DNA of 12,886 nt. Origin: Octopus sinensis. Taxonomy: Eukaryota. The DNA is taken from contig NW_021826474.1 in NCBI RefSeq assembly GCF_006345805.1, forward strand, positions 1 to 12,886, written 5' to 3'. The notes beneath the pieces were generated by a model. That model was not told where the DNA came from. It worked only from the letters and a program-made list of their open reading frames with translations, and searched no databases. Positions 1,274 through 10,860 of the stretch are shown here, piece after piece. The first letter of the stretch is position 1, and each line of letters starts with the position of its first letter. Both the position numbers and the translations under genes were made by a program.

Positions 1274-1547
1274 CACACACACACACACACACATATATAT
1301 ATATATTATATATATATAATATATATTGTTATATTTCGGAATGGTCATATTGCCAGTTTAGCCAATAAAATCTTGCACACAACAAATATTTAAACGTATA
1401 TATATATATATATATATATATATATATATATATATATATATATATATCTATATATATAATATACATATTATATATATATATATATATAATATATATATAT
1501 AATTATATATATATAATATAAATGTAATATATATATATATATATATA
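1274..1547. repeat. (CA)n and long (TA)n microsatellite with a short non-repetitive island at ~1330-1396
   Basis: Read directly. Confidence 0.9.
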
Positions 1548-1745
1548 GTTAATCCAAACATGACAAAGAGAAAACACAACAACGCGAGGACGTGGAATAA
1601 GTACAGTGTTATTGGATAGCTCAGGAAAGGAAAGAAAGAAGGAGGATTTCACGCTTCGAGCGGAGCTCTTCGTCAGTAATATAGAGAAAGTCCAAAGAAG
1701 AGAAGACAGAGAAAGAAAGTCGCCAGCGATACACACGCGGTCACA
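1545..1745 (-). mobile_element. short microsatellite-embedded repeat with a degenerate hammerhead core (Penelope-like pLTR remnant)
   Basis: Minus strand 1676->1647 reads CTGACGA-a-gagc-tcc-gctc-GAAG-cg-TG-aaa; flanked by (TA)n and (CA)n. Confidence 0.5.
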
Positions 1746-1960
1746 CACACACACAACACATACACACTCATATATTTATATATACATACATGCATACACA
1801 CACACATATATACATACAAACATTACATAGATAGATAGATACATACATATATATATATATATAAACATATATATATATGTATATATATCTATATAATATA
1901 TAATATATATATATATTGTATATGTATATATATATATATATATATATATATATCTATATA
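1743..1960. repeat. compound (CA)n/(GATA)n/(TA)n microsatellite
   Basis: Read directly. Confidence 0.9.
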
Positions 1961-2148
1961 TTACATTTTATAAAGGGCTTGTAAAATAAATTACTTTGCC
2001 ACATACTGAACTCATTAGAAATAGCAGCCAAAAAAATTTTAGCCAAATTCTAATACTTAAAGAAAATTTCTCTCAGATAGTGCTTACTCAAAATAGCCCA
2101 CGAAGGTATGGGGGTAAAAACATTAAAAAATCACAAGTGCAAAGGTTA

Positions 2149-2210
2149 TTTGAGAACGTACGTTTCTAGATCAGCCAAATACAATTCGACATTTCTTTCG
2201 TCAGCCCAAA
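2149..2210 (-). ncRNA. type I hammerhead ribozyme motif (minimal, palindromic stem III)
   Basis: Minus strand: uuuggg CUGACGA a-aga-aau-gucgaa-uugua-uuuggc-uga-ucu-a GAAA cguacg UU cucaaa. Stem I uuuggg/cucaaa (6 bp, one G-U); stem II aga/ucu plus gucgaa/uuuggc; predicted cleavage after GUU. The base of stem II has an A-A mismatch. Confidence 0.72.
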
Positions 2211-2862
2211 ATTCCTTAATTCGGATTTGTAAACACTGAAAGTAGGAGCATACCTTTGGCGACTTTTCACCTCCGAAGATCTGTTCAGACTAACAGTGCC
2301 AACAAATTCAAAATATGCAAGCGAAGAATTTCTGCCCTCCCCTTTCCACCCACGTGGGCTAACCTAGCAACACCATAATTTTATCGGTGAAAACCGAAGC
2401 ATTAAACAGAGAGAAATGAATTATAATTTCAACAATTGAGGGTAAAATTAATAATTATTAATCAATTTCACCAAGTATTCAGTATGTAAAGGGACCATTT
2501 AAGCGAATCAAAATATTACATTTTATAAAGGGCTTGGTAAAATAAATACTTTGCCACATACTGAACTCATTAGAAATAGCAGCCAAAAAAATTTTTTAGC
2601 CAAATTCTAATACTTAAAGAAAATTTCTCTCAGATAGTGCTTACTCAAAATAGCCTTCGTGGGCTATTTTGAGTAAGCACTATCTGAGAGAAATTTTCTT
2701 TAAGTATTAGAATTGGCTAAAAAAAAAAGGGGAGGGCAGAAATTCTTCGCTTGCATATTTTGAATTTGGTGGCACTGTTAGTCTGAACAGATCTTCGGAG
2801 GTGAGAAAGTCGCCAAAAGGGTATGCTCCTACTTTCAGTGTTTACAAATCCGATTAAGGAAT

Positions 2863-2923
2863 TTTGGGCTGACGAAAGAAATGTCGAATTGTATTTGGCT
2901 GATCTAGAACGTACGTTCTCAAA
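2863..2923 (+). ncRNA. type I hammerhead ribozyme motif, inverted copy lacking one A of GAAA
   Basis: tttggg CTGACGA aaga...tcta GAA cgtacg TT ctcaaa; same as 2149-2210 except GAAA->GAA (mutation or homopolymer error). Confidence 0.6.
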
Positions 2924-3204
2924 TAACCTTTGCACTTGTGATTTTTTATGTTTGTACCCCCATACCTTCGTAGGCTATTTTGAGTAAGCACTATCTGAGA
3001 GAAATTCTTTAAGTATTAGAATTTGGCTAAAAAAATTTGTTTGGCTGCTATTTCTAATGAGTTCAGTAGTGTGGCAAAGTAATTTATTTTACTAAGCCCT
3101 TTATAAAATGTAATATTTTGAATTCGCCTTAAATGGTCCCTTTACATACTGAATACTTGGTGAAATTGATTAATAATTAATTAATTTTACCCTCAATTGT
3201 TGAA

Positions 3205-3340
3205 ATATATATATATATATATATATATATATATATATATATTATATATATATATATATATATATATATATATATATATATATATATAATATATATATAT
3301 ATATATATATATCTATATATATATATATATATATATATAT
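3205..3340. repeat. (TA)n microsatellite
   Basis: Read directly. Confidence 0.95.
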
Positions 3341-3570
3341 TTATTTATACCCACAAGCTAAACGTCCCAACAAGAACGTACGGGGACAAAAAAGGACAGA
3401 CAAAGGGGTTGAGTCGATTACATCGACCCAGTGCGTACTGGTACTTATTTATCGACCCCGAGAGGATGAAGGCAAAGTCGACCGGCGGAATTTGAACTCA
3501 GAACGTAACGACAGACGAAATACGGCTACGCATTTCGCCCGCGCGCTAACGTTTCTGCAGCTCGCCTTCC
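3341..3570 (-). mobile_element. tRNA-derived SINE family 1, diverged monomer
   Basis: Reverse complement of the 704-933 pattern (GGAATTTGAACTCAGAACGTAACG, CTGGTACTTATTTATCGACCCCG). Confidence 0.88.
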
Positions 3571-3700
3571 TATATATATATATATGTATATTTACATATA
3601 CAAATAGATGTACTGTCATACATACATACATGCATACGTATGTACGTATATATATATATATATGCATGTATGCATATGTATACATAAATATGTATGAATG
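3571..3700. repeat. degenerate (TA)n/(TACA)n/(TATG)n microsatellite
   Basis: Read directly. Confidence 0.8.
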
Positions 3701-8534: not shown

Positions 8535-8835
8535 AAATCTATTGAATAATTTTTATTCGGTTTTATAACTAACTATATAACACGTGGTAGTGTTGTTTAC
8601 TTCGGTTCAATCTTGACTGGACAGAACTATTACCCAAAATCTTTCAAATTATGCCCATACTGTCTTTTGTTTTATTTTCAGGGCATTATTCAATGTGCTT
8701 CCTTACCTGCTGTCCTGGTGTCTCTTCCATAATCGCATATTCATTCCGGAGAATTGTTGCCGTTTGCCATTGTCTCTCCTCATTGAGAGTCGGGAGCAAT
8801 TGCCGTTTTGTGCTTCGAGATTACCTTGCTTAGCT

Positions 8836-9259
8836 CCATTTTCAAAGGTAACCCGGGCCTTCATATCCTTATGGACATCTCTGGTTATAGTCACAAACTT
8901 TTCAAGGCAGCCAAATTTCTTCAGCACCAACCATAATGGATTCCTATTAATTGTCTCAAAAGCTTTGCTAAAATCCACAAAACAATGGCACAAGCCCATG
9001 CTTAGTTCGTTGTATTTCTCTTGCAACTGCCGGATAATTGAGATCTTATGAACTGTCTCTCGAGAAACGCAGAATCCACATTGTGACTCCGTTACAACTC
9101 TCGGGACAATGAATTTACCAAGGCTATCTAAGAGAACACGCGGAAGCACCTTTCCAACAACTGACAACAAAGATATTCCACGGAAATTTCTACATAAGTT
9201 CTTGGGAAATAGAATAGAACCAACCCAGTCTTGAGATCCCTTCCTCTTTCTTCCAGTAT
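8836..9259 (-). mobile_element. RTE-clade LINE reverse transcriptase fragment (3' part), decayed
   Basis: ORF 8703-9170 plus upstream sequence gives SQDW...CRNFRGISLLSVVGKVLPRVLL...ESQCGF...RQLQEK...FVDFSKAFETINRNPLWLVLKKFGCLEKFV...MKARV, typical RTE RT motifs; truncated before the catalytic DD motif. Confidence 0.92.
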
Positions 9260-9275
9260 TATTTAAGAAAAGGAA

Positions 9276-10040
9276 GACGGTGAGCTGGCAGAATCGTTAG
9301 CGCGCCGGACGAAATGCTTAGCGGTATTTCGTCTGCCGCTACGTTCTGAGTTCAAATTCTGCCGAGGTCGACTTTGCCTTTCATCCTTTCGGGGTCGATA
9401 AATTAAGTACCAGTTACGCTCTGGGGTCGATATAATCGACTTAATACCTATGTCTGTCCTTGTTTGTCCCCTCTATGTTTAGCCCCTTGTGGGTAATAAA
9501 GAAATAGGTATTTCGTCTGCCGCTACGTTCTGAGTTCAAATTCTGCCGAGGTCGACTTTGCCTTTCATCCTTTCGGGGTCGATAAATAAGTACCAGTTAC
9601 GCACTGGGGTCGATATAATCGACTTAATACCTATGTCTGTCCTTGTTTGTCCCCTCTATGTTTAGCCCCTTGTGGGTAATAAAGAAATAGGTATTTCGTC
9701 TGCCGCTACGTTCTGAGTTCAAATTCTGCCGAGGTCGACTTTGCCTTTCATCCTTTCGGGGTCGATTAAATAAGTACCAGTTACGCACTGGGGTCGATAT
9801 AATCGACTTAATCCGTTTGTCTGTCTTTGTTTGTCCTCTCTATGTTTAACCCCTTGTGGGTAGTAAAGAAATAGGTATTTCGTTTGTCTTTACGTTCTGA
9901 GTTCAAATTCCGCTGAGGTCAAGTTTGCCTTTCATTCTTTCGGCGTCGATGAATTAAGTACCAGTTGCGTACTGGTGTCGACTTAATCGACTGGCCGCCT
10001 CCCCAAAAATTTTGGGCCTTGTGCCTAGAGTAGAAAAGAA
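9276..10040 (+). mobile_element. tRNA-derived SINE family 1, four-unit head-to-tail array inserted in the RTE fragment
   Basis: One head, then units starting GGTATTTCG at 9323, 9507, 9690 and 9874 (period 183-184); the last unit has a different tail. TSD TATTTAAgAAAAGGAA (9260-9275) versus TATTTAAcAAAAGGAA (10041-10056). Confidence 0.93.
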
Positions 10041-10056
10041 TATTTAACAAAAGGAA

Positions 10057-10140
10057 TAGAGTAGTTCGGTCATCCTTTCCTCCACCAAATTTCAAAATTT
10101 CTGAGCTAATGCCATCAGTACCCGGAGCTATTTTAGAACT
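10057..10140 (-). mobile_element. RTE-clade LINE fragment (5' continuation of 8836-9259)
   Basis: Minus translation SSKIAPGTDGISSEILKFGG matches the KAPGxDGIxxExxK motif that precedes the RT core. Confidence 0.85.
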
Positions 10141-10156
10141 GCTGCAACGTCATCTT

Positions 10157-10206
10157 GTATGTGTGTACATACACACACACACATATGTGTGTGTGTGTGT
10201 GTGTGT
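10157..10206. repeat. (CA)n/(TG)n microsatellite
   Basis: Read directly. Confidence 0.9.
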
Positions 10207-10339
10207 AAGACCTTTTCAATTCTCGAGCGTTATACTAATACATCTGTTTGTTTTCAACACCACCTGTCTTCGTCTTCTGTTTTTTCGTGAAATTCTCCCC
10301 CCCCACCATATATATATAAATATATATATATAATAAATA

Positions 10340-10860
10340 TTAGGGAATAAATCCAGGGAAAAATCAGATTTAAGATTGAATCCAATTTTATAGTAAAATA
10401 TTATATTATATTAAATTAGAGACAAAACCACTATTAGGCAAATCAAACAATGACAAACTTAAGCCAATACATTTATGTAATTAGATATAGACTAATATTG
10501 ATATTAGAATATGGGTTTTCTACCTTATAAATTAAAGTTAATATTTAACATTATAGTCGATTTCGATATAATCATATTTAATAATAGAGTTTATTATAAG
10601 TAAAATTATTATATTATATATATTATTTATATCTTAAAAATATTGATTATATTTTAGATATTTAAGCCACCTGATGAATGACTGCGACTCAAAAATTTGA
10701 AGACAGCAGGCATGAAACGATCGTAGTGTGATATTAATTATATTTTTTTAATAATTTTGTTACATATTTAAATAATATAAATTAATCATATGTATTGGCT
10801 TAAGTTTTTCATTGTTTGATTTGCCTAATAGTGGTTTTGTCTCTAATTTAATATAATATA
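10340..10860 (+). mobile_element. AT-rich non-coding element with a 71-bp inverted repeat enclosing a hammerhead (Penelope-like inverted pLTR remnant)
   Basis: Arms 10402-10472 and 10790-10860 are reverse complements with one mismatch; (TA)n on both flanks; hammerhead at 10668-10728. Confidence 0.72.
10668..10728 (+). ncRNA. type I hammerhead ribozyme (complete catalytic core)
   Basis: cac CUGAUGA aug-a-cugc-gac-ucaaa-aa-uuuga-agaca-gcag-g-cau GAAA cgaucg UA gug. Stem I cac/gug; stem II aug/cau, cugc/gcag, ucaaa/uuuga; palindromic stem III; predicted cleavage after GUA (10725). Confidence 0.8.

What the first reader, a model, noticed from the sequence alone, without database searches (positions are those of the whole stretch)
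1545..10860. Three apparently unrelated hammerhead-carrying, microsatellite-embedded non-coding elements in 10 kb
Seen: four CUGANGA...GAA(A) cores in three sequence families. All have type I order with self-complementary stem III (CG, CGUACG, CGAUCG), all sit in (TA)n-containing tracts, two have inverted-repeat architecture, and none shows a recognisable RT or GIY-YIG ORF. Established: Penelope-like retroelements carry such minimal hammerheads in their pLTRs and leave tandem or inverted pLTRs, and retrozymes are non-autonomous hammerhead repeats. Inference: this genome hosts a diverse, abundant population of non-autonomous ribozyme retroelements that prefer, or accumulate in, TA microsatellites. 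I cannot tell whether these particular families are already described.
Basis: partly seen in the sequence, partly recalled or inferred. Interest (0 to 1): 0.75.

Follow-up and report, generated by a model that had tools for sequence, protein, structure and literature searches.

The report
Penelope retrotransposon ends plus one retrozyme
The three ribozyme-bearing repeats are real and sit in TA repeats, but two are leftover ends of protein-coding Penelope-type jumping genes; only the third is a protein-free, tightly folding 562-base repeat, which is likely copied by such jumping genes and is predicted, not shown, to cut its own RNA.

Summary
The hammerhead motifs are real, and the three families are high-copy: 3,499, 3,612 and 4,829 exact cores genome-wide against 0, 2 and 0 in reversed controls. 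Only two of the window's four cores are intact. They are not three independent non-coding elements. C (10325-10865) is the 3' end of a Hydra-clade Penelope-like element (PLE), with RT and GIY-YIG upstream in longer copies. A (1548-1740) is the short 3' end of a decayed Neptune-like PLE, and its ribozyme is predicted dead. Inverted B and C insertions end one arm at each of two fixed sites (22 of 23, 18 of 19), matching published PLE priming. All end in (TA)n. I found no coding partner for B; cleavage, circles and expression are untested. These are new families of known kinds, probably in an octopus. The scan reported similar elements elsewhere in this genome (e1-8807173, e1-10346800, e1-10336371).

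The parts
1548..1740 (-). Family A: solo 3' end (pLTR) of a Neptune-like PLE
   Evidence: 88-92% to 39 other best copies; collinear with RT/EN remnants upstream through a CA-rich UTR in L188/L247 and L190/L257
1646..1680 (-). A hammerhead, minimal PLE type with an extra A before stem II; predicted inactive here (GAAG, N17=G)
   Evidence: subfamily has G17 in 15 of 19 copies
1958..2659 (-). Family B left arm: one whole ~563-nt unit plus a 5'-truncated part of the unit before it; ends at site E into (TA)n
2149..2210 (-). B hammerhead with intact core: stem I 6 bp, stem III CGTACG, GUU triplet, weak stem II with A.A at its base; predicted cut between 2155 and 2154
2654..3206 (+). Family B right arm: 72-nt fold-back piece, jump to unit position 176, then the unit end and tail; ends at site T
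2863..2923 (+). Second B hammerhead, one A of GAAA missing (mutation or assembly indel)
3113..3206 (+). B tail (~90 nt) between the two fixed ends; identical in register to the start of the next unit
10325..10472 (-). Family C left arm: last ~75 nt of the pLTR plus the ~75-nt tail; ends at site T
10471..10865 (+). Family C right arm: 5'-truncated 3' end of a Hydra-clade PLE; ends at site E
   Evidence: 97.5% over 405 nt to the end of L096, which carries RT and GIY-YIG upstream
10668..10728 (+). C hammerhead with intact core: stem I CAC/GTG, long stem II, stem III CGATCG, GUA triplet; predicted cut after 10725
1397..1547 (.). (TA)n tract at the 3' end of A
1770..1961 (.). TA-rich tract shared by the 5' side of A and the E end of B
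3205..3349 (.). (TA)n tract at the T end of B

Best explanation
All three repeats are likely products of Penelope-like (PLE) retrotransposition into TA microsatellites: C is the 3' end of a coding Hydra-clade element, A is the end repeat of a decayed Neptune-like element, and B is an ORF-less 562-nt hammerhead unit that is likely mobilised in trans. Shown: C and A are collinear with RT/GIY-YIG sequence in longer copies; B has no frame above 52 aa, forms 3-4-unit tandem arms, and folds strongly on its sense strand; inverted B and C insertions end one arm at site E and the other at site T. Inferred: a PLE protein, probably a dimer, nicks both strands of (TA)n and primes reverse transcription at two internal sites of the RNA (as shown in vitro for Poseidon_Ac), so two arms grow back to back and usually stop early. 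Inferred for B: tandem transcripts self-cleave as paired hammerheads through the palindromic stem III, and the monomer may be ligated to a circle. A Hydra-type enzyme is my best guess for B's helper, from hammerhead design and insertion footprint only. The window's A ribozyme is predicted dead.
For: C: L094, L095 and L096 carry the GIY-YIG frame upstream in the same orientation, and L096 also the RT. Sister subfamily L167 has an open 859-aa frame with RIKWKA, DKT, YRDD, CTCRDKSNC, YIG, matching the Hydra definition in PMC8557442 section 11. A: two loci link it to RT/EN remnants with a C-x4-CxxC linker; 29 of 30 core-selected copies start 61-91 nt upstream of the core. B: tandem period 562-563 nt, GC 33%, longest frame 52 aa; circular-fold z -5.5, -6.9, -4.7 in three subfamilies about 85% alike, against -1.5 to +1.3 for 4 control stretches; 163 consensus pairs, 7 with two-sided changes, among 5 units. 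Two-end rule: 22 of 23 distinct B and 18 of 19 distinct C inverted insertions (collapsed by span). TA ends. Across 22 stem-I families with a C-N4-G stem III, 15 are perfect palindromes, stem II averages 4.0 of 5 pairs against 2.0 shuffled, and reversed loci give no such motif. Two RT start sites and both-strand nicking: PMC11167929.
Against: No coding element with B's ends was found in 70 Hydra-ORF loci, 6 mixed, 20 of another PLE family and 4 of a young 775-aa family. Within B, the hammerhead helices show no two-sided change (0 of 14 pairs in 19 variants), and stem II begins with A.A, U.U or G.U. The free-energy folds of the A and B motifs do not give the hammerhead shape. Published PLE hammerheads cleave poorly (PMC4209133), 8 of 9 predicted Xenopus retrozymes did not cleave, and cleavage was dispensable for Poseidon_Ac insertion. 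Tandem arms could arise from a linear multimeric RNA. The A parent is degenerate and its clade rests on motifs, with no tree.
Confidence: 0.8

Rival explanations
1. One reading: all three are independent non-autonomous ribozyme retroelements.
For: No PLE ORF in the window. A copies are mostly ~200 nt with a fixed 5' start (29 of 30) while the coding parent is decayed, so A may now spread as a short unit.
Against: C is 97.5% identical to the end of an RT/EN-bearing copy and extends 2.6-3.2 kb upstream in others. A is collinear with RT/EN remnants. Neither 3' region folds above chance.
Confidence: 0.12
2. B is the pLTR of a coding PLE that I did not find, amplified as tandem satellite DNA, and its hammerhead is a passenger.
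For: Animal retrozymes derive from pLTRs (bioRxiv 10.64898/2026.07.22.740005). Only about 100 coding loci were checked, out of 17,888 EN candidates. Stem II is weak.
Against: In 42 of 72 cases B's tail runs into the next B unit and in the other 30 into TA, never into other sequence. The whole unit folds strand-specifically with compensatory changes. Arrays are short, dispersed and two-armed.
Confidence: 0.15
3. The inverted structures are long-read assembly fold-backs, or the motifs are chance.
For: The window is a whole 12.9-kb unplaced contig with no second copy, and B's arms differ by small indels.
Against: The same asymmetric E/T build recurs at 22 other B and 18 other C sites; cores number in thousands against 0-2 in controls.
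Confidence: 0.02

Closest known systems
Hydra-clade PLEs (Craig et al. 2021, PMC8557442; includes Hydra-1_Obim of Octopus bimaculoides)
   Same: C's parent has DKT, CxCX5C linker, C-terminal GIY-YIG without CCHH, CxxC and CxH, a type I hammerhead and (TA)n targets.
   Different: Unit about 5.6-6.1 kb with a ~3-kb AT-rich 3' UTR against <3 kb; tail ~75 nt against 30-40; hammerhead differs from Hydra-1_Obim, and four core motifs gave 0 hits in that supplement.
Metazoan non-LTR retrozymes (Cervera and de la Pena 2020, PMC7229834; Li et al. 2026, 10.64898/2026.07.22.740005)
   Same: B is an ORF-less, low-GC tandem unit with one type I hammerhead per unit, beside autonomous PLEs.
   Different: 562 nt against ~150-400 nt in coral, mussel and axolotl (within the 51-972 range of Li et al.); two-armed PLE footprint with fixed ends; non-canonical base of stem II; cleavage and circles not shown; no pLTR parent found.
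Minimal PLE hammerheads and Neptune/Nematis-type PLEs (PMC4209133; PMC8557442)
   Same: [quoted passage not shown]
   Different: Most copies are solo ~200-nt ends with a fixed 5' start, and one subfamily spread with a G at the cleavage position.
Poseidon_Ac in vitro mechanism (Frangieh et al. 2024, PMC11167929)
   Same: Two RT start sites bounding the tail, AT-rich target, both strands nicked.
   Different: Here the sites are ~75 and ~90 nt apart, and the pairing of one site per arm is read from genomic copies, including a non-coding RNA.

Membership tests
Hydra-clade PLE (family C) | RT followed by C-terminal GIY-YIG in one ORF | tested here: met
   859-aa frame in L167; broken frames in L096, the window's own subfamily. 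Pfam gave no hit for these; the call rests on motifs and on relatives with PF26215.
Hydra-clade PLE (family C) | DKT and RWK motifs | tested here: met
   SDKT present; RWK reads KWK (RIKWKA) in L167 and RIKWNA in L096
Hydra-clade PLE (family C) | CxCX5C linker, CxxC and CxH around E/N, no CCHH | tested here: met
   CTCRDKSKC, CYLC, CRH in L094/L095; L096 has S for the first C
Hydra-clade PLE (family C) | Hammerhead in pLTR and (TA)n insertion | tested here: met
Hydra-clade PLE (family C) | Generally shorter than 3 kb | tested here: not met
   Hammerhead-to-hammerhead 5.6 and 6.1 kb in L172 and L169; a descriptive trait in the paper, not a diagnostic one
Hydra-clade PLE (family C) | Placement in the RT tree with reference Hydra proteins | not tested
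Non-LTR retrozyme (family B) | Tandem units each with a type I hammerhead | tested here: met
   3-4 units per arm, period 562-563
Non-LTR retrozyme (family B) | No coding capacity, low GC, stable monomer fold | tested here: met
   52 aa at most, GC 33%, z -4.7 to -6.9
Non-LTR retrozyme (family B) | Canonical hammerhead helices supported by covariation | tested here: inconclusive
   95.5% of cells paired but no two-sided change within B; mismatch at the base of stem II
Non-LTR retrozyme (family B) | Self-cleavage and circular RNA | not testable with these tools
   Needs in vitro cleavage and RNase R or divergent RT-PCR
Non-LTR retrozyme (family B) | Terminus shared with an autonomous PLE | tested here: inconclusive
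   None in about 100 coding loci; sampling is small
Non-LTR retrozyme (families A and C) | Independent ORF-less tandem unit | tested here: not met
   Both are collinear with coding PLE sequence; no fold above chance
Neptune-type PLE (family A) | RT, Zn-finger-like linker, GIY-YIG with CCHH | tested here: inconclusive
   Degenerate remnants 52-56% to the L177 frame (weak GIY-YIG, E 0.01); Neptune versus Nematis not resolved, name recalled

The most novel reading that the evidence does not exclude
B is a 562-nt self-cleaving RNA circle that a Hydra-type PLE dimer copies from two fixed start sites at once, one per nicked strand of a TA repeat, so its insertions are a natural record of retrozyme mobilisation. 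Family A would add that a PLE end can keep spreading as a ~200-nt unit after losing its cleavage site.
Probability: 0.35. Interest if true: 0.6.

Novelty: new member of a known kind. Interest (0 to 1): 0.36.

Why it matters
That PLE enzymes mobilise animal retrozymes is proposed but unproven. B shares the exact two-end insertion footprint of a coding Hydra element in the same genome, which gives a defined RNA, two start sites and candidate enzymes for an in vitro test. About 12,000 intact cores in three patterns alone show that hammerheads are a large and unannotated part of this genome. For this window, two of the three elements are ordinary PLE remnants.

Tried and rejected
Rfam found no hammerhead. 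Expression: no RNA holder was listed on record, and contigs of three guessed-RNA runs and one run of unknown kind cannot show strand, ends or circles; the head-to-tail joint also exists in genomic tandems. No conclusion is drawn from them. Search for B's partner: L259 looked like an ORF joined to a B-type end, but the join is at a TATA after a relic of another PLE family whose own ends differ, so I read it as a nested insertion. A Naiad origin for B was considered from the 'half core' note in the supplement; B's motif gave 0 hits there and no Naiad was searched in the genome. No allelic or empty site of the window was found. A single transcription start for Hydra pLTRs was not supported: upstream lengths were 15, 91, 147, 229 and 900+ nt, although 14 of 20 inverted core pairs lay within 100 nt. 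The first A boundary test was too lenient and was redone. One search mixed two registers and was discarded. Dfam and Repbase were not available.
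Full report
Setting. The window is a whole 12.9-kb contig of a 2.72-Gb animal genome. An octopus is likely: the two named protein relatives are from Octopus bimaculoides and Argonauta, and the SINEs look octopus-like (recalled).

Observation. The four CTGANGA starts are where stated, in type I order. Two cores are whole (2204, 10671). The core at 1676 has GAAG and a triplet ending in G; the one at 2869 lacks an A. 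CTGANGA alone is near chance (8 against 4.6), a strict type I motif is not (1 against 0.04). Rfam has no hammerhead hit. Exact core patterns match 3,499 (A), 3,612 (B) and 4,829 (C) times against 0, 2 and 0 reversed. That is about 4.4 per Mb, so this window is denser than average; a shared TA target explains the clustering, and two more PLE ends lie in the same tracts.

Family C. Six of the copies followed up share 1.6-3.2 kb at 88-95%. L094, L095 and L096 carry a GIY-YIG frame upstream in the same orientation, and L096 also RT pieces; the window arm is 97.5% identical to the L096 end over 405 nt. Sister subfamily L167 has an open 859-aa frame with the Hydra motifs (definition in PMC8557442 section 11). 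Pfam does not recognise it. Hydra is already known from Octopus (Hydra-1_Obim) with a different hammerhead. In full-length copies the tail continues into the 5' leader of the ORF (6 of 41 tail ends). C is therefore a two-armed, 5'-truncated Hydra insertion.

Family A. In L188/L247 and L190/L257, A is joined through a CA-rich UTR to degenerate RT/EN sequence, 52-56% identical to a PLE frame in L177. The linker motif points to Neptune or Nematis; the name is recalled and no tree was built. Of 30 copies chosen only by the core pattern, 29 begin 61-91 nt upstream of the core and none reaches the -125 limit of the reference. So most A copies are solo ends with a fixed start that includes the uncut site. 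This fits copying to the 5' end of a transcript, or a short master copy; I cannot separate the two. Stem I varies as ATTT/AAAT and GTTT/AAAC, and the window's subfamily has G at the cleavage position in 15 of 19 copies (9 of the first 100 genome matches). By the established NUH rule it should not cleave, yet it spread.

Family B. The unit is 562-563 nt, GC 33%, with no frame above 52 aa and 3-4 units per arm in five arrays. Its 3' motif matches 8,468 times and is shared by more distant families. Monomers of three subfamilies fold as circles at z -5.5, -6.9 and -4.7, with the sense strand 25-35 kcal/mol more stable than the antisense; four control stretches score -1.5 to +1.3. Five units 83-90% alike give 163 consensus pairs, 7 with two-sided changes, and many pairs join sequence from either side of the cut site. 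The hammerhead has a 6-bp stem I and palindromic stem III, but stem II starts with A.A, U.U or G.U and shows no two-sided change within B (0 of 14 pairs). PMC7229834 reports a U.U base of stem II in an axolotl retrozyme. The C-N4-G stem III is the design found at 15 of 20 diverse Hydra-ORF loci and 10 of 10 C-group loci. Over 22 stem-I families, 15 have a perfect palindrome and stem II pairs 4.0 of 5 against 2.0 shuffled (related families are not independent). No coding partner was found in about 100 PLE loci.

Insertion footprint. B and C each have two fixed 3' ends, E and T, about 90 and 75 nt apart. After collapsing overlapping loci by span (42 rows to 23, 22 rows to 19), 22 of 23 B and 18 of 19 C inverted insertions have one arm at each; the two exceptions are T/T (the window's own copies are included). 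Outer ends run into TA in 54 of 55 B, 56 of 61 C and 41 of 50 A cases, against 6.5% at random. PMC11167929 shows that a PLE protein nicks both strands of AT-rich DNA, starts at two internal RNA sites bounding the tail, is predicted to be a dimer, and does not need ribozyme cleavage. The E/T pairing extends this by inference.

Mechanism. Shown: anatomy, copy numbers, coding parents of A and C, the fold of B, and the footprint. Inferred: priming at E and T on opposite strands, paired-hammerhead cleavage, a circular B template and a Hydra helper. Confidence is about 0.95 for C, 0.85 for A's origin, 0.8 for B as a PLE-mobilised non-coding unit, 0.5 for an active B ribozyme and 0.35 for circle plus Hydra helper.

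Literature seen. PMC8557442: passages, section 11 and supplement searches. bioRxiv 10.64898/2026.07.22.740005: parts 1-3 of 5, supplements not seen. PMC7229834: passages and Discussion. PMC11167929: parts 1-2 of 4. PMC4209133 and PMC13282606: passages. Searches found no paper on octopus retrozymes in the held library; Dfam and Repbase could not be checked, so the families may already be catalogued.

Verdict. A real finding, partly misread. These are new families of known kinds; B is the part worth testing. The scan has noted the same kinds of element many times in this genome.

Noticed in passing
window 1321-1396: Tiny two-armed end of a fourth PLE family (long ORF with RT and GIY-YIG; Nematis-like by recall): 48 nt match its pLTR end at 100% and the rest matches its tail end. 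Its own hammerhead-like motif mostly reads CUGAUGC.
   Followed up: partly
window 10207-10302: 3' fragment of another hammerhead-bearing repeat family related in design to A, truncated just past its core.
   Followed up: partly
window 8703-9296 (-): RVT_1 fragment of a LINE (E 7e-11), RTE-like by recall, interrupted by the 184-bp tandem at 9270-9992.
   Followed up: partly
window 270-540, 705-930, 3355-3570, 5415-5650, 9270-10030: Copies of an abundant SINE-like repeat, one with 3.6 tandem 184-bp units; a second SINE-like family at 4800-5190 and 11820-12235.
   Followed up: no
L096:6262-6950: A ~600-nt distant relative of B (61-72%) with its own hammerhead is inserted in a TA tract inside the Hydra 3' UTR.
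   Followed up: partly
L339-L358: Many Hydra subfamilies with long open frames (up to about 960 aa in the fetched loci) and hammerheads with 50-85-nt stem II inserts.
   Followed up: partly
L364-L367: A very young PLE family with 775-aa frames (97% between copies); no hammerhead of the types scanned was found at its ends.
   Followed up: no
G000:C1 pattern list: In 14 of 20 inverted pairs of Hydra cores both arms start within 100 nt upstream of the hammerhead, hinting at a preferred 5' stop.
   Followed up: partly
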